Shown here in pieces: positions 8,477 to 60,055 of a stretch of DNA of 64,000 nt. Location of the stretch: UHGV virus genome UHGV-0141727; one strand, given 5' to 3'. Origin of the DNA: a virus. The notes under the pieces were generated by a model that was given only the letters and a program-made list of their open reading frames with translations, was not told where the DNA came from and did no database searches. Position 1 is the stretch's first letter. Each line of letters begins with the position of its first letter. Made by a program: the position numbers and the translations under genes.

Positions 8477-8494
8477 ATTGTTAGAAAATTAATT
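8477..8494. promoter_or_regulatory. operator-like motif attgTTAGAAAATTAAtt
   Basis: One of at least 10 dispersed copies of the TTAGAAAAtTAA family. Confidence 0.45.
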
Positions 8495-9522
8495 CAGGAA
8501 TCCATCAGGCGACTATTTGCACCAACGGATGCCCCGCTACGGCGCAAATATCGCATAAGTGTTTCGGGCTTTTTCCATGTGCCTTCCTGCATGATCTCGA
8601 CCATTGACACCTGTTTCTCAGCCATATCAATTGCCGCACCAACACGCGCACTATGACCTGTCCACGTCCGGTATCTTCCTTTGTTCGGCGTGGCATCTCG
8701 CTTATTCAGCAATCCCCAGGCATCGCTGAATATTTTCTCCATCGCAGGAGCAGTAAGAGGCGTTGTCGTGATTCTGGCTTTATTACTGCGGTGTATTGGC
8801 GGGAATAGCACCGCGTCCGGATGTTCACGAAGTCCGGACACCTCCAGCCAGTCGTTTAGCACGGCGGTAGTGCAACGAGAAAGCACCTTATCAAGTCCGG
8901 CGGCGGTCGTGATGGTCTTCGTGTGTGAAATATGCAGCGTTACAGTGTCACCTGTTTGGTCCAGATCTCCGACACGGATGCGCGAGATTTCTGACATACG
9001 CATCAGGGTATTGTATGCCACGAAGAGAAACGCCCGATTGCGCAGGTCCACCAGCCGCTCGGAACGGGACAGCAATACGTCGAGCAATTTCAGATCATCC
9101 CACCGCAACGGTATAGCCTGGCCTGTACGCTCGCCTTTTTCCGTTGCCGCTTCGCGCCGGATGCGCCGCATGGCCAGAGATACACTTTTATCGTCTGACA
9201 GCGGCGGTAGGCCGCATTGCGAAAGCAGCATGTTAAGCATGGCATAGTGCTTATCAATGGTGGTCGAAGCCAGATCGGCTTCATGCAACTGGAGAAGATA
9301 CTCGCGGGCCATTTCCGGCGTAATCGGGAACCAGGGGCGCTGGCGCGAATTACACCACCGCGCCCAGGAATGAAAGACCAGACGGAGATCACGAAGTGTA
9401 TTTGGGGCATAAGCTCCCTGGTCGTTCATGAACTGCATAAAGTTTTTTGCAGCTTCCTGGTATTCGGTGCCAATATCGCGCAGAAAACCGCCAGAACCGC
9501 CGGAGATAACTAGTTCACCCAT
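8494..9522 (-). CDS. cre: Cre-family tyrosine recombinase
   Basis: Collinear similarity to P1 Cre as recalled (SWARWCNSRQRPWFP, VSLAMRRIRRE, GHSARVGAA). Confidence 0.9.
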   Translation of the reverse strand: MGELVISGGSGGFLRDIGTEYQEAAKNFMQFMNDQGAYAPNTLRDLRLVFHSWARWCNSRQRPWFPITPEMAREYLLQLHEADLASTTIDKHYAMLNMLLSQCGLPPLSDDKSVSLAMRRIRREAATEKGERTGQAIPLRWDDLKLLDVLLSRSERLVDLRNRAFLFVAYNTLMRMSEISRIRVGDLDQTGDTVTLHISHTKTITTAAGLDKVLSRCTTAVLNDWLEVSGLREHPDAVLFPPIHRSNKARITTTPLTAPAMEKIFSDAWGLLNKRDATPNKGRYRTWTGHSARVGAAIDMAEKQVSMVEIMQEGTWKKPETLMRYLRRSGASVGANSRLMDS

Positions 9523-9673
9523 GAAACTATTAAACCTCTATATACAGATGACGCTACGTGAAAAATAGAAAACTGACAGGGTAGTTATAAGTTAATTTTC
9601 AAAATTCAAGCCTTTGATTCGAGGCATGATTTTTCATCCTTGTCAATACTACCTGTTTACTGGAGATTATAGC

Positions 9674-9707
9674 CTAACTTTAAATAATGCCAATTATTTA
9701 AAGTTAG
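9674..9707. other. lox-like recombination site, 13-bp inverted arms around an 8-bp spacer
   Basis: CTAACTTTAAATA-ATGCCAAT-TATTTAAAGTTAG; arms share TAACTT..ATA with loxP; about 150 bp upstream of cre. Confidence 0.55.
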
Positions 9708-9903: not shown

Positions 9904-10941
9904 ATGAGTAAGAAGTCGATCGAGAATGAGTACAAACGGTTCCTGCAAACCGCTGAACGGTGGAAAGAGCTGGTGGTCGCAAACTCTGTTTTCCATGATA
10001 CCAGTTACGTTGGCGAGGAATTTCGCCATGTTGCATTAACACATGATCCGGCTGTATTAGAAGAAGCTGAAAAATGCATAGCCGAATGGAAAGCCTTTGT
10101 TGATCTGTGTCGCAAGGATGATGACAAAGCCTCAAACATTGTTGAGTCGGTTTATTTACCGATCCCATTCATTGTTGAGGATACTAATCAGAGTACGCAT
10201 ATCGTTATGCAAAGCGCAACCACAACGAGAACATTTACGCGCGAAGACCTGCTGAAAAAATACGATAAAACTATAAAGAAAAGCATGAAAAACAGGATCT
10301 TTTCACAGGTTGTCGGTGCGCTTGAAGAAGAACGCAGATTCTTCGCCGCAGAACGTGAGGGCGAGGTATACCGCGCAAGAAAAGAAGGTTATACCGATGT
10401 GGTGATTACCACCAATATCGAGGGCAACAATGGACTTTCACGCTTCAGAGTGGGTACGCACGGTGCGCTGATCTTTGCAAAAAAAGCAAACACAGAGATT
10501 CCCGTTGTTAACAACGTTGGTGAGCGCCGCACCCTTACCATTTACACTGGCATTAAACCGCTTCCGTGCGGACTTCTCGGCGAATTTGACCTTTATCGGG
10601 TTCGTGACCTGGAAAAGCAGCAGCCAAGCTATGTCGTGAAGTCATATATCCTGAGAAACATTGATATCCGCAATCAGAGTTTAAAAAACAAATCAGAGAA
10701 AATGCTGTCCGAAGCTGATCCAGCCATACACCAGATCGTTAGCCGGAAAATTCAAGAAGCTAAAGATGCAATGGCAAGGCTGGATAAAATGGACCTGGAA
10801 CTACTGGAAGTTATGATTGCCTCCGGCGATGACCTGACAGGCATCCGCCTTACTGAAGCCAGGAAAAAATACGGTAAAAGCGTTGAAGAACGCTATGGGT
10901 ACACATTCACACAAACGATGTACGCGGCAAAACTCTGGTAA
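9904..10941 (+). CDS. hypothetical protein in the position P1 uses for c1 (candidate primary repressor)
   Basis: Start at 9904 preferred (AGGA 4 nt upstream); divergent from cre, convergent with pacB; operator-like motif in its leader. Confidence 0.5.
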   Translation: MSKKSIENEYKRFLQTAERWKELVVANSVFHDTSYVGEEFRHVALTHDPAVLEEAEKCIAEWKAFVDLCRKDDDKASNIVESVYLPIPFIVEDTNQSTHIVMQSATTTRTFTREDLLKKYDKTIKKSMKNRIFSQVVGALEEERRFFAAEREGEVYRARKEGYTDVVITTNIEGNNGLSRFRVGTHGALIFAKKANTEIPVVNNVGERRTLTIYTGIKPLPCGLLGEFDLYRVRDLEKQQPSYVVKSYILRNIDIRNQSLKNKSEKMLSEADPAIHQIVSRKIQEAKDAMARLDKMDLELLEVMIASGDDLTGIRLTEARKKYGKSVEERYGYTFTQTMYAAKLW

Positions 10942-10957
10942 TCGCAAGCCACCCACA

Positions 10958-10980
10958 AGCCCCGAATCGCCGGGGCTTTT
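10958..10980 (+). terminator. rho-independent terminator
   Basis: AGCCCCG-aatcgc-CGGGGCT followed by TTTT. Confidence 0.6.
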
Positions 10981-12487
10981 AAATGTCAATATCAGGAATA
11001 TCCACTTCTGCCAACACCTGATCGCGGAATGTTGCTAGTTCTGCACCAATGTCTTCATTAGCAGGCACGTAATCCACCAGCATAGTGAAGCAGTAGGTAT
11101 CCCATCTGTCCGGCGACTTGATGTTTAACTTCTGCCGCATGTGCTCCTTGCGCATCATCGCCACCTTCCCTTCTTCGTTAAGCATATACGGGATTTTTGA
11201 TGCCTGATCGGCAGTTTTGGGGTCACTATCGATACGCATACGCCCTGATTTAATGGCATCCCCTGCCATAATATTGGCGTAAGCACGCTGATTGACAAAG
11301 CGTTCTCTGTCTCTTAGCGCAAACATAGGTTTACCCCAACGGATGCGAACGGGATTAGCACCACGGCGGACAAGCTGCGCACACGTATCTGAACCAAAGC
11401 CATCAGCATCCACAGCAATGGTGATGTTCGGGTATTTATCAGGAGTGCATTCGTTATAGATAAAGTCGGCAAAAGCCAACGGGTCCATAGTGCCTGGCAT
11501 CTCCAGTATCTTAAAGTTCACAACACGTCGTTTCTCACGATAACCGGATACTTTGCATATATTGAGCACCGATTTGTCGCGACCATTACCGACGTCAGCG
11601 GTCGCTACCCAGCCCCAATCTTTCTCCAGCAACACTTTACGCCGTGCGGCGCGGTCGCACTCATCACGACCAAGCAAATACCCGTTAATTGCACGCGGGA
11701 ACTGGCCCAGCACCTTAACCATGTACTCCAGCGAATCCCTGCCGCCGTACTCCAGCAATTTCTCACGAATAAAGCTCGGTTCAACGAATGGAGATTCTTC
11801 AGAGTTAAGGACTATTGCCGTCCAGACTCCTTCCGGATTGCCTTCTGCCTTTGCCCTTGAATGGTGGGATTCATAAAAGTAACCGCTTGGACGCGTAGGC
11901 TGGGAAAGCATGAGCATACGGTTATCTTTCTGCGTTAACGCCCCCGTCATGACGTTAATCGCCTTATCGGATATGCCCGATGCTTCATCAAGGATTAGCA
12001 GTAAATGCTCCGCGTGCTCCCCCGCCAGTGCCTCTTCGTTACCGAGTCGATAACCTTTACAGAGCACTTCCCATATCCCTTTACGGGAACGCTCATAAAA
12101 CATGGTGTCAGACAGGACAAAATAGGTCTGTAACCAGCCGTGGCGCTTAACAGCATTCGCCCAAAACTGTTTCACGTATTTGAATACGCCTGTTTTTACC
12201 TGGCCTATTTTGTTCGCAACAATAATGACGCGGGCGTCGGGGAACAGGATCATAAAAATTAGTAGCAACATCGCGGTAAGGGACGACTTACCCGTTCCGT
12301 GTCCGGACGTAACGGTCGTCCTGCTCCCCGTCTCCTGCACTGACTGAATGATCTGCTGCTGCTGGTGGGAGGGGAACATCCCAAAAATATCGACAACCGC
12401 CTGGGTAAAGTTGTATCGATACCTGATAACCATATCGCGCCAACGTGGATCACTGGTCACGCACTTAATCTTACGACCACCAGCCAT
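10979..12487 (-). CDS. pacB: terminase large subunit (P1 PacB-type)
   Basis: 502 aa; Walker A GHGTGKS, Walker B LLLILDEASG, C-terminal nuclease-domain length; directly follows the small-subunit gene. Confidence 0.85.
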   Translation of the reverse strand: MAGGRKIKCVTSDPRWRDMVIRYRYNFTQAVVDIFGMFPSHQQQQIIQSVQETGSRTTVTSGHGTGKSSLTAMLLLIFMILFPDARVIIVANKIGQVKTGVFKYVKQFWANAVKRHGWLQTYFVLSDTMFYERSRKGIWEVLCKGYRLGNEEALAGEHAEHLLLILDEASGISDKAINVMTGALTQKDNRMLMLSQPTRPSGYFYESHHSRAKAEGNPEGVWTAIVLNSEESPFVEPSFIREKLLEYGGRDSLEYMVKVLGQFPRAINGYLLGRDECDRAARRKVLLEKDWGWVATADVGNGRDKSVLNICKVSGYREKRRVVNFKILEMPGTMDPLAFADFIYNECTPDKYPNITIAVDADGFGSDTCAQLVRRGANPVRIRWGKPMFALRDRERFVNQRAYANIMAGDAIKSGRMRIDSDPKTADQASKIPYMLNEEGKVAMMRKEHMRQKLNIKSPDRWDTYCFTMLVDYVPANEDIGAELATFRDQVLAEVDIPDIDI

Positions 12488-13851
12488 TAGTCATCCTCCG
12501 GCTGGTCTATCGCAATCTCGTCATCTACAGCATCAAAACCGGTATCCCCCGCGTCATAATCACCGTAGATATCAGCCGTGGCGGAAGGGTCTATATTCAG
12601 GTCTTCATCATTGGCCTCAAATTCACCGGCTTTACGTTCTCCGTTCCGGTCGTAATCCCCCATCCCAAGCCTATCAACGATTTTCGCTACTTCAGCCCGG
12701 CGTTGTGCAAGCCATTGTGGGAGTCCAGCTTGTTGCTCGGCAAACTGCTTCGCCTCTTTATCCAGTTGCTCATCATCAACATCGTTAACGTCAGAAACCG
12801 GAGGCTCCAGAAGTGAGATCGCTTTTGCCGCTCGTGCTGCCAGGATAGCCGGGACACTGACGCCCTGCCGCTCGATATATTCAGCAACGCCTATATCGTC
12901 CAGCTCCTCGCGCTCACGCATACGTATAGCGGCGGCGATAACTCTGGCGGCGCGTGCGTCAGCGCCAATGCGATACTCAATCTCTTTGCCACGCTGCTCG
13001 GCTTGCAGGCGAGTAATCGCCAGTTTTTCTCTGGCCTCAGCCTCTCTGAATGCCTGCTGGCGCGCGCCCTGCGCAAGTTTTTCATCCCCCTGGCGTAGCT
13101 TCTGCTCGGTCTGGTAGATGGCAGCCAACCTACTGATAAAGTCATTCATGTAGTAGGCCGCATCGCTTATTAGGCCGAGAAGACGCTGCCCTGGGTGCAT
13201 TCCCTCTGGCTGTGTATCGCCGAGGGCGTCAATCTCTTCCTGTAGTCGTTCCGCTTCCTGGTCAACGATGGCCTGATACTGAATTGCTCGTTCCTGCGCC
13301 ATCTGTATCGCAAGTCGTAAATGTTCTGTCGCGCCGTTCTTCATCATCTCACGGGCGACGTTGGTGGCAGGCAAAGTGGCGCTTTGAGCTGATGAGTCAG
13401 GGATCATTTGCAATGATCCCATGTTTCGTTGGGCTTTTTCGCTGCTTTTAGGGATCATTTCCCCCATTTCATCACAAAATGATCCCCTTACATCCTTGTG
13501 TATCTTGTTGTTATTACTTGACTTTTCTTTGTGATCCGCATTTTGTTTTTGCGGCATGGCGCGGAATCGTCCACCAGCTAACGATTTGTCAGTTTTTGTA
13601 AATTCTGTGCTTTTATCAGCCTTTTTTTGCTCTTTTTTTGGGCTTGCGGCGCTGCTTTTCGCGCGCTGTTTTGTGCTTTTCCCGGCAGCCTTAGCTTTCG
13701 CTTTAACCTCATTTTTTTTCATATTGAGATGCTTTCTGGCGGTGTTAAAGCTGAGGTCATGCTGCTCGCAATATTCCTTTATGGTGATCCCGGTTTCTTC
13801 TCTTAACTCCAGGAACTTAGCTCGATGCGCTTCCCAATTAATTAACGTCAT
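12487..13851 (-). CDS. pacA: terminase small subunit / pac-recognition protein (P1 PacA-type)
   Basis: N-terminal HTH, lysine-rich linker; coupled to pacB; GATC-rich pac-like repeats inside the gene. Confidence 0.6.
   Translation of the reverse strand: MTLINWEAHRAKFLELREETGITIKEYCEQHDLSFNTARKHLNMKKNEVKAKAKAAGKSTKQRAKSSAASPKKEQKKADKSTEFTKTDKSLAGGRFRAMPQKQNADHKEKSSNNNKIHKDVRGSFCDEMGEMIPKSSEKAQRNMGSLQMIPDSSAQSATLPATNVAREMMKNGATEHLRLAIQMAQERAIQYQAIVDQEAERLQEEIDALGDTQPEGMHPGQRLLGLISDAAYYMNDFISRLAAIYQTEQKLRQGDEKLAQGARQQAFREAEAREKLAITRLQAEQRGKEIEYRIGADARAARVIAAAIRMREREELDDIGVAEYIERQGVSVPAILAARAAKAISLLEPPVSDVNDVDDEQLDKEAKQFAEQQAGLPQWLAQRRAEVAKIVDRLGMGDYDRNGERKAGEFEANDEDLNIDPSATADIYGDYDAGDTGFDAVDDEIAIDQPEDD
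13400..13538. other. candidate pac site: five GATC-containing ATGATCC/GGATCAT elements within about 140 bp inside pacA
   Basis: GATC at 13403, 13415, 13454, 13481, 13534 in a repeated flank context. Confidence 0.45.
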
Positions 13852-15756: not shown

Positions 15757-15832
15757 GTGGTGGCCCCTACCGGACTTGAACCGGTGACCGTGCGATTATG
15801 AGTCGCCCGCTCTAACCACTGAGCTAAAGGGC
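15757..15832 (-). tRNA. tRNA with CAU anticodon, ileX-like (tRNA-Ile2 lysidine type; tRNA-Met by anticodon alone)
   Basis: GGCCCTTTAGCTCAGTGGTTAGAGCGGGCGACTCATAATCGC...GGTTCAAGTCC...CCA; close to E. coli ileX as recalled. Confidence 0.8.
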
Positions 15833-16261
15833 CAGATTACTGTTAATTACGCTTACGCTTTTTGCCAGAACCGCGTAAGGCTTTTGCCGCTTGCTCTACC
15901 CCGTATGCAACCACCAGCAGAAACAATAATGTCCACTCCGGGTTTTTATCGGCAAACGCCCAAAAATCCATCACTTGCAGCCACCTTTTAAGACAAACAC
16001 CATTGCTGTTAGGTTGCGGTGCCGGGTGCCTCCCGGTGACGTTAACCAGTTAACAATTAACGCCGGATCACTTATGGATTCTCGTTACGCCAGTAAAAAG
16101 ACCACCTTTACTGTTTTAACTGTACCGCGTGCGCTTAGCCGCATTCACCGCAATGGTAAGAGCACTTGGCTGGCTGGGCGGCGATGACGCCTGTACGCAT
16201 TTGGTGATCCGGTTCTGCTTCCGGCATTCGCTTAATTAGCCAAATACTCTTAACGTTGCGA

Positions 16262-16348
16262 TGGCGGAGAGTAATGGAATCGAACCATCATCGCTTGCGC
16301 GACGGGACGGATTTCAAGACCGCTTGAGCACCATGCTCCCTACTCTCC
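16262..16348 (-). tRNA. class II tRNA, probably tRNA-Ser(UGA)
   Basis: 87 nt, acceptor GGAGAGT/ACTCTCC, loop CUUGAAA, long variable arm, T-loop GGTTCGATTCC, encoded CCA; anticodon stem is imperfect. Confidence 0.55.
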
Positions 16349-16500
16349 AGTGATTGTGGTGGTCGGTGCTGATCTCCGACTGCGCCTCTTTTTTTCATAG
16401 CCCATAAGGCCGGTCAGTGCGCTTGATGACTGAGGCATCGATATTTACTACGCCGCGTCGTTGCCATAGGGCGGACTTGCGCGCCAGCAACGCGCATTCA

Positions 16501-16588
16501 CCACAACGGTAAGGGTACTTCGTAGGGATTCGAACCCTCTGCCAAGCACGGCGATCTCCGACGTCGCAAAATACCCTTACCTGTTGTG
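16501..16588. other. tRNA-like element: T-arm-like palindrome between 16-17-bp inverted repeats
   Basis: CACAACGGTAAGGGTA ... AGGGATTCGAACCCT ... TACCCTTACCTGTTGTG; no canonical cloverleaf found. Confidence 0.3.
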
Positions 16589-16589
16589 T

Positions 16590-16665
16590 TGGTGCCGGTT
16601 AACGGACTCGAACCGCTGACATCCTGCTTACAAGGCAGGCGCTCTACCAACTGAGCTAAACCGGC
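16590..16665 (-). tRNA. tRNA-Thr(UGU)
   Basis: GCCGGTTTAGCTCAGTTGGTAGAGCGCCTGCCTTGTAAGCAGG...GGTTCGAGTCC...ACCA. Confidence 0.85.
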
Positions 16666-16669
16666 AATT

Positions 16670-16756
16670 TGGTGGGGAGTGATGGAGTCGAACCATCCGA
16701 GTCGCAATGACAGTAGATTTACAGTCTACCCCGCTACCCCTACGGACTAACTCCCC
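16670..16756 (-). tRNA. tRNA-Tyr(GUA), class II
   Basis: GGGGAGT acceptor, loop CTGTAAA, long variable arm, GGTTCGACTCC, CCA. Confidence 0.8.
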
Positions 16757-16761
16757 TAAAT

Positions 16762-16838
16762 TGGCGATGGTGGGTGGATTCGAACCACCGACCGACAGCT
16801 TAGAAGGCTGCTGCTCTATCCTACTGAGCTACACCATC
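16762..16838 (-). tRNA. tRNA-Arg(UCU)
   Basis: GATGGTGTAGCTCAGTAGGATAGAGCAGCAGCCTTCTAAGCTGT...GGTTCGAATCC...GCCA. Confidence 0.8.
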
Positions 16839-30453: not shown

Positions 30454-31001
30454 CAGTGAGCCTCCGCAATGCCGGGATTGGTAATATTGCGATACCAGGG
30501 ATTAGTGTTTGGTTGTGGGGAAGTAGAGAAACGACCAGTGAGAACGCCATACTGATCAGGGATCAGAGAACGGGCTTCTTTTTCAGTTGCGGCAATTGCG
30601 AAGTGATCACAATGTTTTTGCAGGGAGTGGAAACGCCAGATGAATTCTGGACGTGAGCAAGGATTGGCATTAACCATAGTTACGGCCTCATGTACAGGTT
30701 TAACAACCTGCAACCCGCTGCTAAACGGGTGGCAGGACGTGACGGGGTTAGCAGACTGGCGTACATGAAACCAGCAGGCCGAAGCCTCCCCATCACGCCC
30801 CACCATAATTTGGGCGTAACGTGGTTTACGGACACAAAAATACCGCAATATCGGATATCTGCGGTTGTCCGCATGTACATTCAGGCTGCTAAACCCGGTC
30901 GCAGAATTTGCTACGACGGCATGAATATAAGCCTGAACATTAGAAAGATCAACAGAATTTTTATCAGATGCTGTTTTTTTGTGACGATGTAAATCATACA
31001 T
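30453..31001 (-). CDS. hypothetical protein (182 aa), first gene of the immI-like operon
   Basis: Cys/His-rich ORF; operator-like motifs directly upstream. Confidence 0.4.
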   Translation of the reverse strand: MYDLHRHKKTASDKNSVDLSNVQAYIHAVVANSATGFSSLNVHADNRRYPILRYFCVRKPRYAQIMVGRDGEASACWFHVRQSANPVTSCHPFSSGLQVVKPVHEAVTMVNANPCSRPEFIWRFHSLQKHCDHFAIAATEKEARSLIPDQYGVLTGRFSTSPQPNTNPWYRNITNPGIAEAH

Positions 31002-32052: not shown

Positions 32053-32114
32053 CAGATAGTTCCGTGAAAAATCTATCTACCGTATAAATCTATGCCAGTG
32101 GATTTATACACCCA

Positions 32115-32146
32115 AAAGCCGCTACTCAGCGGCTTTTGCTTTTTTG
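32115..32146. terminator. bidirectional intrinsic terminator
   Basis: AAAGCCGCT-actca-AGCGGCTTT followed by TGCTTTTTT. Confidence 0.55.
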
Positions 32147-37786: not shown

Positions 37787-39732
37787 ACGCCCCCTTGTTG
37801 TATCTCTGCCAAAATGTTGATCAGGTGATCGGCTGCCGCACCAACAAGTGACTCGTTCTCATCATATCGACCTGCGTTGATAAGAACATTAGCTGCCTCC
37901 TGAATGCGATCAAACTCCGCTCTAATCACCGTCAAATCACGGGACGTAAACTGCAACGGCACGGATTTCAGATATTCCAGCGCACTGTCCGCCTCCTGAT
38001 CAGCCTCACTAACGACTGGCCCATCTGAACCTGTATCAGACTCTTGGGGGGATTCAGGTTCAGACTCAGGTACTGGTACTGGTACTGCTTCCGGTGCCTG
38101 ATCTAATGTCTGTTCAGCTTCGACTACTTCTGATTGATTCTGAAGCGCGTCATAGATATCCATTATAAAAAGGTTCTCCCCATCTCCAAGTGGATAAGCG
38201 ACGTTAGGAAATGCTTTGCGGAAGAGGATTTTTATCTGCGCCTTAAAGGTTTTCAAGTCGCTTCCAAACAGATCAACATAGCCATCAATATGGTTCGACA
38301 TACTGGACGCAACCAATTCGCCTGCAATCTCTTTCAATTCATCGTCACCAGGGAGATATAGCAACTCGTACTGACTGACTTCTTCGTCTGTCAGTTTGCG
38401 GTCATACGTAATGATTCCGTGACGAGCATATTCGTAATACGGATCAGCCTGATCAGGACGGTCAAGTACAGCTTTATTTCCTTCAGGAACCGCACCAACA
38501 CCCGCCGGGCGAGATTGGAGCGCATAGCGATATTTACCAACCTCCAGGGGATCAGGATGTGATTCTGGTTGTGGCTCCTGTTCAGGCTGCGGCTGATCAG
38601 TTGGCTCAGGCTGGCCCGGCAACACATCCACTTTGTATTGATCAGCATTATGTTCACGATAGGCTTTAAGTAATTTGGTTGCAGCGTCCGCTGAACTCCC
38701 ACCTTTAACAGCACTGACATCAATACTGAAATTGCCTTCTGGTGCCTCAATCGTGACAAAGCTATCACTGCCTGACGTGACATACTTAACTACAGCACCA
38801 TTATCCAGCGTTGTTTGGCCTTCTGTAGCAAGATTATGTTTTATGTGTCGCAGTTGATCATTGAAGGCACGCTCTTTAGTTCCTTGGCTCTTAGCTGACA
38901 ATAAATTATCGCGTTTAGCCTGCAATTCCGCGTTAAGGGCTTTTTGTGCGTCTAATTTATTCTGCATATCATTGAGTGTTGAGCGTTTCTCTGCCAGCCC
39001 CCGCTGTGCGTCTTCAACCTGCTCAATCAGCACAGAACGTTCTTCTGCCAGCTTGTCGGCTTCATTGAGATACCCCTCAATATCAGCCTTCATTTTGTCT
39101 TGGCGCTCCTTTGCTTTTTTGAATTTTGCACTATTACGCTCAATGAGGTTAGAAAGCGCCTGGCATACCTGGCTCAGAGATACATCACGCCCACCGATTG
39201 GCGCAACAACATGCGTAACGTTTCTTTTGTTAAGAAGAAACTGAAACGCAACCAGCTCGTCATCCCCTTTAATTCTTGTGCCGTCTGCGGTTGGAGAATG
39301 GAAAATTATGCTTGTCGTTTGCCCATCGGTTAGAGGTATTTGTGCTGTTACAACAGGGATATTAGCAACCCGGCGCACGCGCCCAATGATTGCCCCACCG
39401 ATACTATTACGTCCGTCTTCATATTCACCTGCCTCATCCGTACCCGCAGCAATGTCAGTGCCATTCAGGCCGCGATTAAGCGCCCGGACAAATGCTCGCA
39501 TTGTTTGCGCTAACCGCAATTTTGTTGTGGTTATAGCTTCGAACATTGCCTCATTGGTAGTTACCAAAATTTCGTTGCCCATATAGGCCAGCTCGATATC
39601 TTCCAGCGTCGCAGGCTCGATAAGTAAATCATCCTCGGTGATATCTTCCGCCACCCAACGATTAGGCGTATATCCAGTGAGCGTATCTGCAAAAGTGGAC
39701 TGGATATTTATTCGAATAGGTTTCTTTATCAT
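37780..39732 (-). CDS. DarA-like protein (size and position match P1 DarA)
   Basis: 650 aa downstream of holin/antiholin-like genes, as in the P1 lydA-lydB-darA operon; proline/acidic linkers. Confidence 0.35.
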   Translation of the reverse strand: MIKKPIRINIQSTFADTLTGYTPNRWVAEDITEDDLLIEPATLEDIELAYMGNEILVTTNEAMFEAITTTKLRLAQTMRAFVRALNRGLNGTDIAAGTDEAGEYEDGRNSIGGAIIGRVRRVANIPVVTAQIPLTDGQTTSIIFHSPTADGTRIKGDDELVAFQFLLNKRNVTHVVAPIGGRDVSLSQVCQALSNLIERNSAKFKKAKERQDKMKADIEGYLNEADKLAEERSVLIEQVEDAQRGLAEKRSTLNDMQNKLDAQKALNAELQAKRDNLLSAKSQGTKERAFNDQLRHIKHNLATEGQTTLDNGAVVKYVTSGSDSFVTIEAPEGNFSIDVSAVKGGSSADAATKLLKAYREHNADQYKVDVLPGQPEPTDQPQPEQEPQPESHPDPLEVGKYRYALQSRPAGVGAVPEGNKAVLDRPDQADPYYEYARHGIITYDRKLTDEEVSQYELLYLPGDDELKEIAGELVASSMSNHIDGYVDLFGSDLKTFKAQIKILFRKAFPNVAYPLGDGENLFIMDIYDALQNQSEVVEAEQTLDQAPEAVPVPVPESEPESPQESDTGSDGPVVSEADQEADSALEYLKSVPLQFTSRDLTVIRAEFDRIQEAANVLINAGRYDENESLVGAAADHLINILAEIQQGGVW

Positions 39733-42026: not shown

Positions 42027-45000
42027 TTAATACCCATAAGCAACATACTGTGCATATATTTTATCAGTGGAGCTACTTTTTACTGTAAAACCAGTGGCAG
42101 AGTTGTTGTATGTATAAAGAATTGCATTAACAGCATTCCCGCTATGAGGTGAAATCACAACTGCCGCACACGACTCAGGAAAAGAAGTCGGAAATTTAAC
42201 TACGCTTCCTGGAGTAACAGCCGCTATAGTCCCCCACTGCATCATCACCTTAGTTGATGTATCCTTATGCCATCCATGAATGTTGGCATATGCAGTATTT
42301 TTAGCCTGATATTTCGTGTTGAAATTACTATAGTTACCAGGGGTAATCTGACCAGCGGCAGATAAATTCCCCATAACCCTTACATGACCATCAGCACGTC
42401 CTAATTCTACGCGACCATCACCGCCATCTATCTTTAATGGAGTGTAAACGACATCACCATTAACATTTTGCCCAGTGGTTGATATCTGGAAACTATATCC
42501 AGTATTAGTTATTAGGAATCCATAGTTATTATTATAAGTTAGGCGTATAGCATTTTGGCTGCTGGATATAATTTCACCGGTAACAGTACCACCTGTTGTT
42601 GGTAACGCACCAACATGACTTGCCGTTAATGTGATATCTGCAGAACCATCAAAAGCCACGCCACTTATTTTTCTGGCAGTTTTTAACTTTGTAGCTGTAG
42701 CTGCATTGCCACTTGTATTTTGATTCCCGGCAATATTAACGCCCGGAAGATTGATGTTTGCTGAACCATCAAACGAAACCCCGCCTATTGTGCGTGCTGT
42801 TTGCAGTTTTGTGGCAGTTGCAGCATTGCCGGTAGTGCTCTGATTGCCTGTTTTATTCACGCCCGGCAGGTCGATGTTTGCGGTGCCATTAAATGAAACA
42901 CCACCAATAGTTCTTGCCGTTTGTAATTTCGTTGCAGACGCCGCGTTTCCGGTTGTGTTCTGGTTGCCCGTGGTATTTACACCAGGGATGGAATCTTTCG
43001 ATGTGTAGACCTGCGCCCACTCAGACCAACTAGCTGTATCAGTATCTCGTCGCGAACGTACATGTACAGGCGCATGAGCACCACTTGTACCGCTCCAACC
43101 TATGAACAACTCGCCTTCACCAGCGGCTGTTGCGCCCTTAAGATGAAGCACATTCCCGTAAGCAGAAGGATAGCCGTTGTTGTACGCCTCATACATCTGC
43201 AATCCAGTGGTAGCACCTTGCGTTGTACTGGTGAGCGCAGTAACACGCCCTCTGGACGTAATTGTTGGTATCGAAATGTTCGCAGAACCATCAAACTTAA
43301 CACCGTTGATTGTGCGGGCTGTTTGCAGTTTTGTAGCGGTTGCCGCATTACCTGTTGTGTTCTGGTTACCGGCAATGTTCACACCCGGCAGGTTGATATT
43401 GGCGCTGCCATCAAATGCCACCCCGCCGATTGTGCGGGCCGTCTGAAGTTTCGTTGCGGTTGCCGCATTACCGGTTGTGCTCTGATTACCCGTTTTATTC
43501 ACGCCAGGCAGGTCGATATTAGCACTGCCATCAAATGACACTCCACCGATCGTTCGAGCTGTCTTGAGCTTTGTGGCAGTATCGGCGTTCCCGGTCAGCG
43601 TACCAGTAATCCCACCGCCAACTTTTACGCCGTTACCGATGGACACCAACCCAGTTCTTAAGTTTATAGAAAATGGTCTTAATGGCCCGATGTCACCATT
43701 TTCACCCTCCCCTTCATTTGTCGGGATAAGATGAAGATATTCCTCGGATCTCCTGAAGATAAGGCCAAAGGCCTGGTTAAATATTCGAAGGGCATTTATT
43801 GTGCCAATTTTTAGCTGCCCCCCCATTGTGTCGCCAGAACGCTGAACGGCGTTACCAGCTTGAGAAGCAATATCCGTTAAGCCAAGATCTTCAGGGGTCA
43901 GAGTAATATCTGCCGAACCGTCAAATGCCACACCGTTAATCTTTCTGGCTGTTTTTAATTTCGTCGCAGTATCGGCGTTCCCGGTCAGCGTACCAGTGAT
44001 CCCCGCGCTGAAAGTCTGGCGTGCACTCCATGTGTTAGCCGTGCTCAACAGGGGGATTTTTTCACCGCTGGTACCGAGTTCTCTTAAACCAAGGTATTGG
44101 ATAACAGCCAGAGTGCTTGTTTTAGCCAGAATATCGCGACCGACTGACGTTAAATCAGTCTGGGCTACAGTGTCTGTTCCGGTAAAGTACGGTAATTTAT
44201 TTGCCCCCGTCGCCAGGCCAGCGAGCGCGGTTAAGGTTGCGTCGAGAGGCTGCTTACCTGCAAGGGCATTTGTCATTGTAGTCGCAAAGTTCGGGTCATT
44301 GCCCAGTGCTGCGGCAAGCTCATTCAGGGTATCAAGAGCTTCTGGTGATGAGCCGACCAATGCAGAAATAGCGGCACGAACATAAGCGGTTGTTGCAATC
44401 TGAGTGTTGTTCGTACCTTGTGACGCCGTAGGAGCTGTTGGAACCCCCGTAAATGCCGGGCTTAATAACGGCGCTTTAAGAGCTAACGCATCATTAATCG
44501 TCTGGCTAAACTGGGGATCATTGTTTATTGCATCTGCAATTTTTTTCAGCGTATCCAACGCTGAAGGAGAACCATCAATAAGGGCGGTTATTGCGGCCTG
44601 AACAAAGGCAGTGTTTGCGATTTGTGTACTGTTTGTACCTTGTTCCGGAGTTGGAGATTTAGGTATACCAATAAACTCCGGGCTATCAACCGGAGCTTTT
44701 AGTTTGTTTAACGTGCTGATAGCAAGAGGTGTTGCGGCTTTATATTCTTCGTCACTATCCAAAGCACTGGAAAACTCAACACCAACAGCACGATTAGCAC
44801 GATATTCAGTGCTAATCATATCTGCGGTAACGGCTTGAGCATTGTCAGGCACGATCACGCGGCATAGCTCAATCTGGTTAGATGCTATTTCCTCATCAAC
44901 GAGAGCAATAATTCTCGCTGCGCTAATATCCGATGAACTATCTACCTGGCTGGTTTTCACTCCATGTTCGTAATTAGCTTCAAGAACGATGATTGTCGTT

Positions 45001-60027: not shown

Positions 60028-60055
60028 AAGTCTCCCCATTTGCATGGGGAGACTT
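60028..60055. other. stable intergenic stem-loop
   Basis: AAGTCTCCCCAT-ttgc-ATGGGGAGACTT; U-tract only on the plus strand. Confidence 0.4.

What the first reader, a model, noticed from the sequence alone, without database searches (positions are those of the whole stretch)
9674..9707. lox-like site with 13-8-13 architecture next to the Cre homolog
CTAACTTTAAATA-ATGCCAAT-TATTTAAAGTTAG has perfect 13-bp inverted arms around an 8-bp spacer and sits about 150 bp upstream of cre. The arms share TAACTT..ATA with loxP but differ at 4 of 13 positions, suggesting a heterospecific Cre/lox pair.
Basis: seen in the sequence. Interest (0 to 1): 0.45.

Follow-up and report, generated by a model that had tools for sequence, protein, structure and literature searches.

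The report
Known rox site beside Dre recombinase

Summary
The 34-bp palindrome at 9674-9707 is real and far beyond chance. Its inner 32 bp (9675-9706) are identical to rox, the published target of Dre recombinase from phage D6. The adjacent 342-aa gene (8494-9522, minus strand) is 94% identical to Dre and 40% to Cre. It keeps every catalytic residue and the three residues that specify rox over loxP. Gene order (dut-orf3-orf2-dre-rox-c1-pacB-pacA-lpa) matches the D6 immC record, and the window comes from a ~90-kb D6-like E. coli phage-plasmid. The perfect repeat here is 15-4-15 (published as 14-4-14). The 13-8-13 reading is the loxP-aligned register that others also use and that mutagenesis supports functionally. 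Two side observations may be new. First, an 11/12 sigma-70 promoter match aimed at dre uses the rox core as its -35, and its TATAAT -10 is conserved in every related lineage examined, which suggests autoregulation. Second, related plasmids carry the same arms with different cores (GCCA, GCTA, ACTA, CCCC), in one case beside an identical recombinase. Main finding: already known, low interest.

The parts
9674..9707 (.). rox recombination site. The canonical 32-bp rox is 9675-9706 (14-nt arms). In this lineage position 15 on each side (C9674/G9707) also pairs, giving 15-4-15.
   Evidence: Identical to the misc_recomb 'rox' feature of AY753669. The 15th pair is absent in D6 (C...T), so it is probably not part of the functional site.
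9689..9692 (+). Asymmetric 4-bp core GCCA (TGGC when read toward dre). It gives the site its polarity and lies inside the 8-bp loxP-equivalent crossover region, ATGCCAAT (9687-9694).
   Evidence: Core orientation relative to dre is fixed in all 20 viral-contig loci held that include the gene. Mutagenesis evidence that the crossover region reaches into the first arm bases: PMC4777119.
8494..9522 (-). dre: Cre-family tyrosine recombinase, 342 aa, an allele of phage D6 Dre.
   Evidence: 94% identical to D6 Dre (322/342) and 40% to P1 Cre. Pfam Phage_integrase and Phage_int_SAM_1. Best solved-structure matches are all Cre, E about 4e-72. R175/E178/K202/H290/R293/W316/Y325 and R44/P259/K263 are present.
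9666..9693 (-). Predicted sigma-70 promoter directed at dre: -35 TTGGCA (9693-9688, which is the rox core plus one base each side), a 16-nt spacer (one rox arm plus GGC), and -10 TATAAT (9671-9666). Inferred, not shown.
   Evidence: 11/12 consensus match. Only two such matches exist in the whole window. The -10 hexamer is conserved at the same offset in 25 sequences, and stands as an island in 7 divergent lineages.
9904..10941 (+). c1: D6-type prophage repressor homolog, transcribed divergently from dre with rox in the shared intergenic region.
   Evidence: 80% identical over 345 aa to the annotated C1 of D6. No Pfam family.
10979..13851 (-). pacB (10979-12487) and pacA (12487-13851) terminase genes. 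They place rox 1.3-4.2 kb from the packaging genes, as in P1 and D6.
   Evidence: 92% and 74% identical to D6 PacB and PacA, with the same lengths and order.

Best explanation
This is the rox site of a D6-like phage-plasmid, and the neighbouring gene encodes its Dre-type tyrosine recombinase. By analogy with Cre/loxP, one Dre monomer binds each arm. Two rox sites are brought together by a tetramer. Tyr325 cleaves one strand on each side of the central region, and the strands exchange through a Holliday junction. The asymmetric core GCCA fixes the polarity and must match between partner sites. In the element's life cycle the system is expected to do what Cre/loxP does for P1: resolve plasmid-prophage multimers so that copies segregate, and circularise terminally redundant DNA after infection. 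What is shown here: site identity, enzyme identity, catalytic and specificity residues, synteny, and conservation across relatives. What comes from the literature: that Dre recombines rox and not loxP. What is inferred: that this 94% allele is active, and the in vivo roles.
For: The site is identical to the published and annotated rox sequence. The recombinase is 94% identical to Dre. All catalytic residues and the three residues that switch Cre to rox (Cre K43R/R259P/G263K, PMC4957104) are present, and none of the 20 substitutions touches them. Eight flanking genes are in the same order as in the D6 immC record, at 71-94% protein identity. A 42-bp identical block containing rox stands out in an intergenic region that otherwise diverges. 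In all 20 IMG/VR contigs held that include the neighbouring gene, and in 7 of the 8 plasmid loci fetched (the eighth, L036, was not parsed), a Dre homolog of 70-100% identity starts 168-169 bp from the site centre with the core in a fixed orientation. Dre/rox activity and lack of cross-reaction with Cre/loxP: PMC4777119 and PMC4957104. Multimer resolution is the role ascribed to this module in D6-like prophages (PMC6799933), and P1 cre is annotated 'cyclization recombinase'.
Against: No experiment exists on this particular allele. It carries 20 substitutions relative to D6 Dre, 15 of them in the N-terminal 102 residues, and their effect is untested. No P1-type pac hexamer cluster was found in pacA, so the geometry behind the cyclization role (rox lying within the terminal redundancy) could not be verified. 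The Dre cleavage positions on rox have not been mapped directly (PMC4777119). The primary paper (Sauer & McDermott 2004) could not be read here.
Confidence: 0.93

Rival explanations
1. The palindrome is primarily a transcriptional control element, a promoter/operator for dre and possibly c1, and recombination is secondary or lost in this lineage.
For: A near-consensus promoter overlaps the site and points at dre. The -10 is conserved at a fixed offset in all relatives. The site lies between divergent genes.
Against: The same 32-mer is an experimentally proven recombination substrate. Both arms are perfectly conserved, although only one arm and the core would be needed for a promoter. The recombinase is intact and is the best-conserved protein in the module. 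The two roles do not exclude each other, so this is more an addition to the main explanation than a rival.
Confidence: 0.03
2. The site and gene are a decayed or specificity-shifted copy: the 20 substitutions make this enzyme inactive on rox, or shift it to another target.
For: There are 20 substitutions relative to D6 Dre, clustered in the N-terminal domain. Related recombinases can differ in selectivity (Panto versus Dre).
Against: The reading frame is intact at full length. No substitution falls at a catalytic or mapped specificity position. The site is unchanged, whereas a shifted specificity would be expected to change the arms. Homologs of only 70-88% identity still keep identical arms. 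Identical or 99% proteins occur in other contigs and plasmids, which argues for a maintained, functional allele.
Confidence: 0.03
3. It is a chance AT-rich palindrome or a hairpin terminator unrelated to recombination.
For: The arms-only pattern also hit one unrelated AT-rich hairpin in a Clostridia MAG that has no recombinase (L002).
Against: Zero comparable inverted repeats appeared in 100 randomised windows. The match to rox is exact. The site keeps a constant linkage and spacing to a Dre gene. No T-run follows the stem on either strand, and it was not called terminator-like.
Confidence: 0.01

Closest known systems
Dre/rox of Escherichia phage D6 (GenBank AY753669, MF356679; Sauer & McDermott 2004)
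   Same: The 32-bp site is identical. The recombinase is 94% identical with the same length. The 168-bp spacing to the start codon, the divergent c1, and the dut...lpa gene order are all the same.
   Different: There are 20 amino-acid substitutions. Flanking DNA is about 83-85% identical and C1 is 80% identical. Position 15 of each arm also pairs here, giving 15-4-15 against 14-4-14. D6 has a 16-bp insertion on the c1 side of rox relative to the window.
Cre/loxP of phage P1
   Same: Same enzyme family and fold-level homology (E about 4e-72 to Cre structures) with the same catalytic residues. The site has the same 34-bp register and shares TAACTT..ATA-ATG. The core has the same polarity relative to the recombinase gene, and the site has the same genome position between c1/pac and the recombinase.
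   Different: Protein identity is only 40%. The arms differ at 4 of 13 positions and the central 8 bp at 5 of 8. loxP lies 435 bp from cre with cra between them, and coi/imcAB lie between loxP and c1. P1's promoters flank loxP but do not overlap it. No cross-recombination occurs.
Panto/pox (Pantoea sp.), with Vika/vox, VCre/VloxP and Nigri/nox as further Cre-like pairs
   Same: Cre-like recombinases with a nearby 34-bp palindromic target. pox arms differ from rox by one nucleotide, and Panto also recombines rox (PMC4957104).
   Different: Panto is only 52% identical to Dre, according to that paper. The window enzyme is a true Dre allele, and its site is exactly rox rather than pox.
Tn3/gamma-delta resolvase-res autoregulation (recalled from general knowledge, not tested here)
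   Same: A recombination site overlapping the recombinase promoter, so that site binding represses the gene. This is the logic proposed here for rox and the predicted dre promoter.
   Different: It involves a serine recombinase and a different site architecture. For Dre/rox the promoter and any repression are predictions only.

Membership tests
Dre/rox system (D6-type Cre-like recombinase and target) | Target sequence TAACTTTAAATAAT-GCCA-ATTATTTAAAGTTA | tested here: met
   Exact match at 9675-9706, unique in the window. Identical to the annotated rox of AY753669.
Dre/rox system (D6-type Cre-like recombinase and target) | An adjacent recombinase orthologous to Dre | tested here: met
   322/342 identical, no gaps. 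Same spacing to the site as in D6.
Dre/rox system (D6-type Cre-like recombinase and target) | Residues that specify rox over loxP (Dre R44, P259, K263, equivalent to Cre K43R/R259P/G263K) | tested here: met
   All three are present. Their role is from PMC4957104.
Dre/rox system (D6-type Cre-like recombinase and target) | Genomic context of a D6-like plasmid prophage (dut-orf3-orf2-dre-rox-c1-pacB-pacA-lpa) | tested here: met
   Same order, orientation and sizes, at 71-94% protein identity. The nearest records are ~90-kb E. coli plasmids.
Dre/rox system (D6-type Cre-like recombinase and target) | This enzyme recombines this site and does not recombine loxP | not testable with these tools
   Needs an excision or inversion assay. 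Known only for D6 Dre, from the literature.
Tyrosine recombinase (Cre-like) catalytic core | R-E-K-H-R-W/H-Y active-site residues | tested here: met
   R175, E178, K202, H290, R293, W316 and Y325 align with Cre R173, E176, K201, H289, R292, W315 and Y324. Pfam PF00589 at 61.7 bits against a cut-off of 27.1.
Cre/loxP proper (P1-type) | loxP arms ATAACTTCGTATA and Cre specificity residues K43, R259, G263 | tested here: not met
   The arms differ at 4 of 13 positions each, and the residues are R, P and K. Protein identity is 40%. It is therefore not a loxP site, although it works like one.
Cre/loxP-type site architecture (13-8-13) | 13-bp inverted arms with an 8-bp asymmetric spacer cleaved 6 bp apart | tested here: inconclusive
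   The sequence can be read as 13-8-13, but only the central 4 bp are asymmetric. Mutagenesis suggests a loxP-length crossover region, yet the cleavage sites are unmapped (PMC4777119).

The most novel reading that the evidence does not exclude
The rox site doubles as the promoter and operator of its own recombinase gene. The asymmetric core supplies the -35 (TTGGCA) and a conserved TATAAT just outside the arm supplies the -10, so Dre bound at rox would repress dre. On this reading, the natural core polymorphism among otherwise identical sites (GCCA, GCTA, ACTA, CCCC, TCCA, sometimes beside the very same enzyme) would do two things at once: tune promoter strength, and make related co-resident phage-plasmids recombinationally incompatible, preventing cointegrates. 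I found no annotation or paper describing either point, but I could not read the 2004 primary paper or the 2018 D6 genome paper.
Probability: 0.3. Interest if true: 0.35.

Novelty: already known. Interest (0 to 1): 0.12.

Why it matters
As it stands, this is a correct rediscovery of Dre/rox, a pair characterised in 2004 and used routinely alongside Cre/loxP in mouse, zebrafish and bacterial genetics. Its practical value is limited. It adds one more natural Dre allele (20 substitutions, none at known functional positions) and shows that the rox arms stay invariant across Dre homologs down to 70% identity. The side observations could be of modest use. Naturally occurring core variants are ready-made candidates for heterotypic rox sites. 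A promoter embedded in rox would matter to anyone placing rox sites in bacterial constructs, because it could cause unintended transcription. It would also give a simple model for autoregulation of a Cre-family recombinase.

Tried and rejected
1. Chance palindrome or terminator: rejected. No comparable repeats appeared in randomised sequence, no T-run follows the stem, and the match to rox is exact.
2. A second or better site in the window: none, whether as a full site within 3 mismatches or as a half-site within 2, apart from one weak match at 42528.
3. The Clostridia MAG hit to the arms-only pattern (L002): a fully symmetric AT-rich hairpin with no recombinase nearby, so unrelated.
4. A P1-type pac hexamer cluster (TGATCA/G) in pacA, sought to support the cyclization geometry: not found.
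5. The conserved ~60-nt block just upstream of the dre start codon as a repeated operator or a structured leader. ATAACTACCCTGTCA recurs no more often than chance. TTTTTCGCGTAGCGTCA has 4 loose matches against 0.26 expected, but three of them carry 3 mismatches each. There is no RNA structure signal, z = +0.88. Left unexplained.
6. Promoter score as evidence on its own: an 11/12 match is expected about once per window at random, so only its placement and conservation count.
7. Reading Sauer & McDermott 2004, Gilcrease & Casjens 2018 and Lobocka et al. 2004: none is held in the library.
8. Relaxing the viral-contig pattern to six free central bases: it returned the same 23 contigs.

Full report
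**Observation.** The sequence CTAACTTTAAATAATGCCAATTATTTAAAGTTAG lies at 9674-9707, as reported. It can be read as 13-8-13. The perfect inverted repeat is longer, though: 15-nt arms (9674-9688 and 9693-9707) around a 4-nt core, GCCA. It is the only perfect inverted repeat in the window with arms of 13 nt or more and a spacer of 8 nt or less. None arose in 100 Markov-1 randomisations of the window. A 342-codon ORF on the minus strand (8494-9522) starts 151 bp from the edge of the site and 168 bp from its centre. Against loxP in the 34-bp register, each arm differs at 4 of 13 positions and the central eight bases at 5 of 8.

**Identity.** The inner 32 bp (9675-9706) match TAACTTTAAATAATGCCAATTATTTAAAGTTA exactly. 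I first recalled that sequence as the rox site, and the tools then confirmed it:
- It is unique in the window even with three mismatches allowed.
- A 2.6-kb query around the site hits only phage D6 among 50,697 phage records, at 83-85% nucleotide identity.
- GenBank AY753669 (D6 immC region) annotates, under the match, dre ('tyrosine recombinase; similar to the P1 Cre recombinase'), a misc_recomb feature 'region of crossover (rox) site for Dre recombinase', and c1.
- The window protein is 94% identical to D6 Dre (322/342, no gaps) and 40% identical to P1 Cre.
- It matches Pfam Phage_integrase and the N-terminal SAM-like domain. Its best solved-structure relatives are all Cre, at E about 4e-72, and no Dre structure exists in the PDB copy.

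**Residues.** The catalytic residues R175, E178, K202, H290, R293, W316 and Y325 align with Cre R173, E176, K201, H289, R292, W315 and Y324. These are the positions given for Dre in PMC4777119. Karimova et al. showed that the Cre changes K43R, R259P and G263K confer activity on rox (PMC4957104). The window protein has R44, P259 and K263. None of its 20 differences from D6 Dre falls at a catalytic or mapped specificity position, and 15 of them lie in the first 102 residues.

**Context.** The order dut, orf3, orf2, dre, rox, c1, pacB, pacA, lpa matches the D6 record in orientation and gene length. Protein identities run from 71% to 94%, and Dre is the best conserved. The closest records are ~90-kb circular E. 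coli and E. marmotae plasmids at 98-99% identity. About 100 plasmids carry the module at 80-90% identity. The window also contains a P1-type C4 antisense RNA and a tRNA cluster. It is therefore part of a D6-like phage-plasmid. Aligning the dre-c1 intergenic region with D6 shows a 42-bp identical block containing rox, set within otherwise diverged DNA.

**Conservation among relatives.** An arms-only pattern with a free 4-nt core finds 23 IMG/VR contigs:
- 21 of them have the GCCA core.
- In all 20 whose held sequence reaches the neighbouring gene, a Dre homolog starts 168.5 bp from the site centre (169.5 bp in one). The core always has the same orientation relative to the gene.
- The single hit among species-representative genomes is a fully symmetric AT-rich hairpin in a Clostridia MAG with no recombinase nearby. 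It is unrelated.

Plasmid hits chosen across the identity range show a natural series. The arms are identical or nearly so beside Dre homologs of 88-94% identity, and of 70% in IMG/VR contig L008. The cores vary: GCCA, GCTA, ACTA, CCCC, TCCA, and one 5-nt core in an IS-flanked Klebsiella copy. Loci L031 and L033 are annotated with the same recombinase accession (WP_039002937.1) but carry GCCA and ACTA cores. That is the behaviour expected of a crossover region that the enzyme does not read.

**Architecture.** The literature describes rox as 14-bp inverted repeats around a 4-bp asymmetric spacer (PMC4777119 citing Sauer & McDermott 2004). Here the 15th positions also pair. They do not pair in D6, so that extra pair is probably incidental. 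Karimova et al. align rox with loxP in a 34-bp, 8-bp-spacer register. [quoted passage not shown] They concluded that the rox crossover region is probably similar in length to loxP's, and noted that the cleavage sites have not been mapped. The shared ATG at the start of the 8-bp region has the same polarity relative to the recombinase gene in P1 and in the window.

**Mechanism and role.** By homology with Cre, one Dre monomer binds each arm. A tetramer synapses two sites. Tyr325 makes staggered single-strand cleavages flanking the centre, and exchange proceeds through a Holliday junction. The asymmetric core sets direction and must match between partners. Activity of Dre on rox, and the absence of cross-reaction with Cre/loxP, come from the literature. 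Activity of this particular allele is inferred. The biological role is also inferred. P1 cre is annotated as the cyclization recombinase, and the equivalent module of D6-like Salmonella prophages is assigned multimer resolution (PMC6799933). From general knowledge of P1, Cre/loxP both circularises terminally redundant infecting DNA and resolves plasmid dimers. I looked for a P1-type pac hexamer cluster in pacA to check the cyclization geometry and found none, so that part stays unverified.

**A side observation that may be new.** The consensus scan finds an 11/12 sigma-70 promoter on the minus strand, pointing at dre. Its parts are:
- -35 TTGGCA at 9693-9688, which is the rox core plus one base on each side;
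- a 16-nt spacer, made of one rox arm plus GGC;
- -10 TATAAT at 9671-9666, just outside the arm.

The score alone proves little. Only two such matches occur in the window, and about 1.1 are expected at random. The placement and the conservation are more telling:
- The TATAAT explains why the block conserved with D6 extends 10 bp beyond rox on the dre side only.
- The hexamer sits at the same offset in all 25 sequences compared: D6, the window and the 23 contigs.
- In an alignment of seven lineages it is a conserved island (TATAAT or TATGAT) bordered by variable positions. That includes the 70%-identity lineage, whose flank is otherwise unrelated.
- The -35 varies with the core, from 5/6 down to 3/6.

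P1 has a different arrangement. Its annotated P4cre lies just upstream of loxP and reads through it, and P3cre lies about 100 bp downstream. Neither overlaps the site. Neither D6 record annotates a promoter at rox. None of the Dre/rox papers in the searchable library mentions autoregulation. If the promoter is real, Dre bound at rox would be expected to repress its own gene. This is a prediction only, and I could not read the 2004 and 2018 primary papers to see whether it had been noted.

**Rivals.** A chance palindrome or terminator is excluded. A purely regulatory palindrome is unlikely, because both arms are conserved and the identical sequence is a proven recombination substrate. Regulation is better seen as an added role. 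A decayed or retargeted enzyme is unlikely too. The ORF is intact. The functional residues and the site are unchanged. Identical or near-identical alleles recur in other elements. And more distant homologs keep the same arms.

**Verdict.** It is already known and of low interest. The embedded promoter and the natural core variants are minor leads worth a short experimental check.

Noticed in passing
window 9666-9693 (minus strand): Near-consensus sigma-70 promoter (TTGGCA-16-TATAAT, 11/12) aimed at dre. Its -35 is the rox core, and its -10 is conserved at a fixed offset in all related loci. It suggests Dre autoregulation. Not annotated in the D6 records.
   Followed up: yes
L008:3706-3737, L015:12405-12436, L030, L032, L033, L035 (sites near position 1501-1546 of each plasmid locus): Natural rox variants with identical or nearly identical arms but different cores (GCTA, CCCC, TCCA, ACTA). 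L031 and L033 are annotated with the same recombinase accession yet have different cores (GCCA and ACTA). These are candidate natural heterotypic rox sites.
   Followed up: partly
L034 (Klebsiella pneumoniae pINF321.2, CP110578) about 1501-1545: A rox-like site with a 5-nt core (one-base insertion) beside an 88%-identical dre, flanked by IS26 and IS4321 on an IncR conjugative plasmid. It looks like a stranded remnant of a phage-plasmid.
   Followed up: no
window about 9535-9590 (minus strand, dre leader): A ~60-nt block just upstream of the dre start codon (ATAACTACCCTGTCA...TTTTTCACGTAGCGTCA...TATAGAGG) is conserved even in the 70%-identity lineage. It shows no RNA structure signal. The second motif has 4 loose matches in the window (9549, 25296, 33144, 54534) against 0.26 expected. 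Function unknown.
   Followed up: partly
window 9904-10941 (+): The C1 repressor homolog is only 80% identical to D6 C1, whereas Dre is 94% and PacB 92%. It matches no Pfam family. It may have a different immunity specificity from D6.
   Followed up: no
window 12487-13851 (pacA): No cluster of P1-type pac hexamers (TGATCA/G) lies within pacA. The densest clusters in the window are near 37800 and 55080. The pac site of this lineage may differ from P1's or lie elsewhere.
   Followed up: partly
window 30725-30810 and 30878-30930 (minus strand): Rfam C4 antisense RNA (71.7 bits) and its a1/b1 target element (53.9 bits): a P1-type immI antirepressor control region.
   Followed up: no
window 15758-16838 (minus strand): A cluster of five tRNA genes (Met-CAT, Ser-TGA, Thr-TGT, Tyr-GTA, Arg-TCT). 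Rfam reports four of them, and tRNA-Ser is called only by ARAGORN.
   Followed up: no
window 32113-32138 and 60028-60055: The next-best perfect short-spacer palindromes are CAAAAGCCGCTACTCAGCGGCTTTTG (11-4-11, which looks like a bidirectional terminator) and AAGTCTCCCCATTTGCATGGGGAGACTT (12-4-12).
   Followed up: no
window 41355 (+): The only other 11/12 sigma-70 consensus match in the window (TTCACA-16-TATAAT).
   Followed up: no
L002:6381-6412 (uncultured Clostridia MAG OZ007016): A fully symmetric AT-rich 32-bp palindrome that shares the rox arms by chance, flanked by A and T runs, with no Dre-like gene in the 8 kb held.
   Followed up: yes
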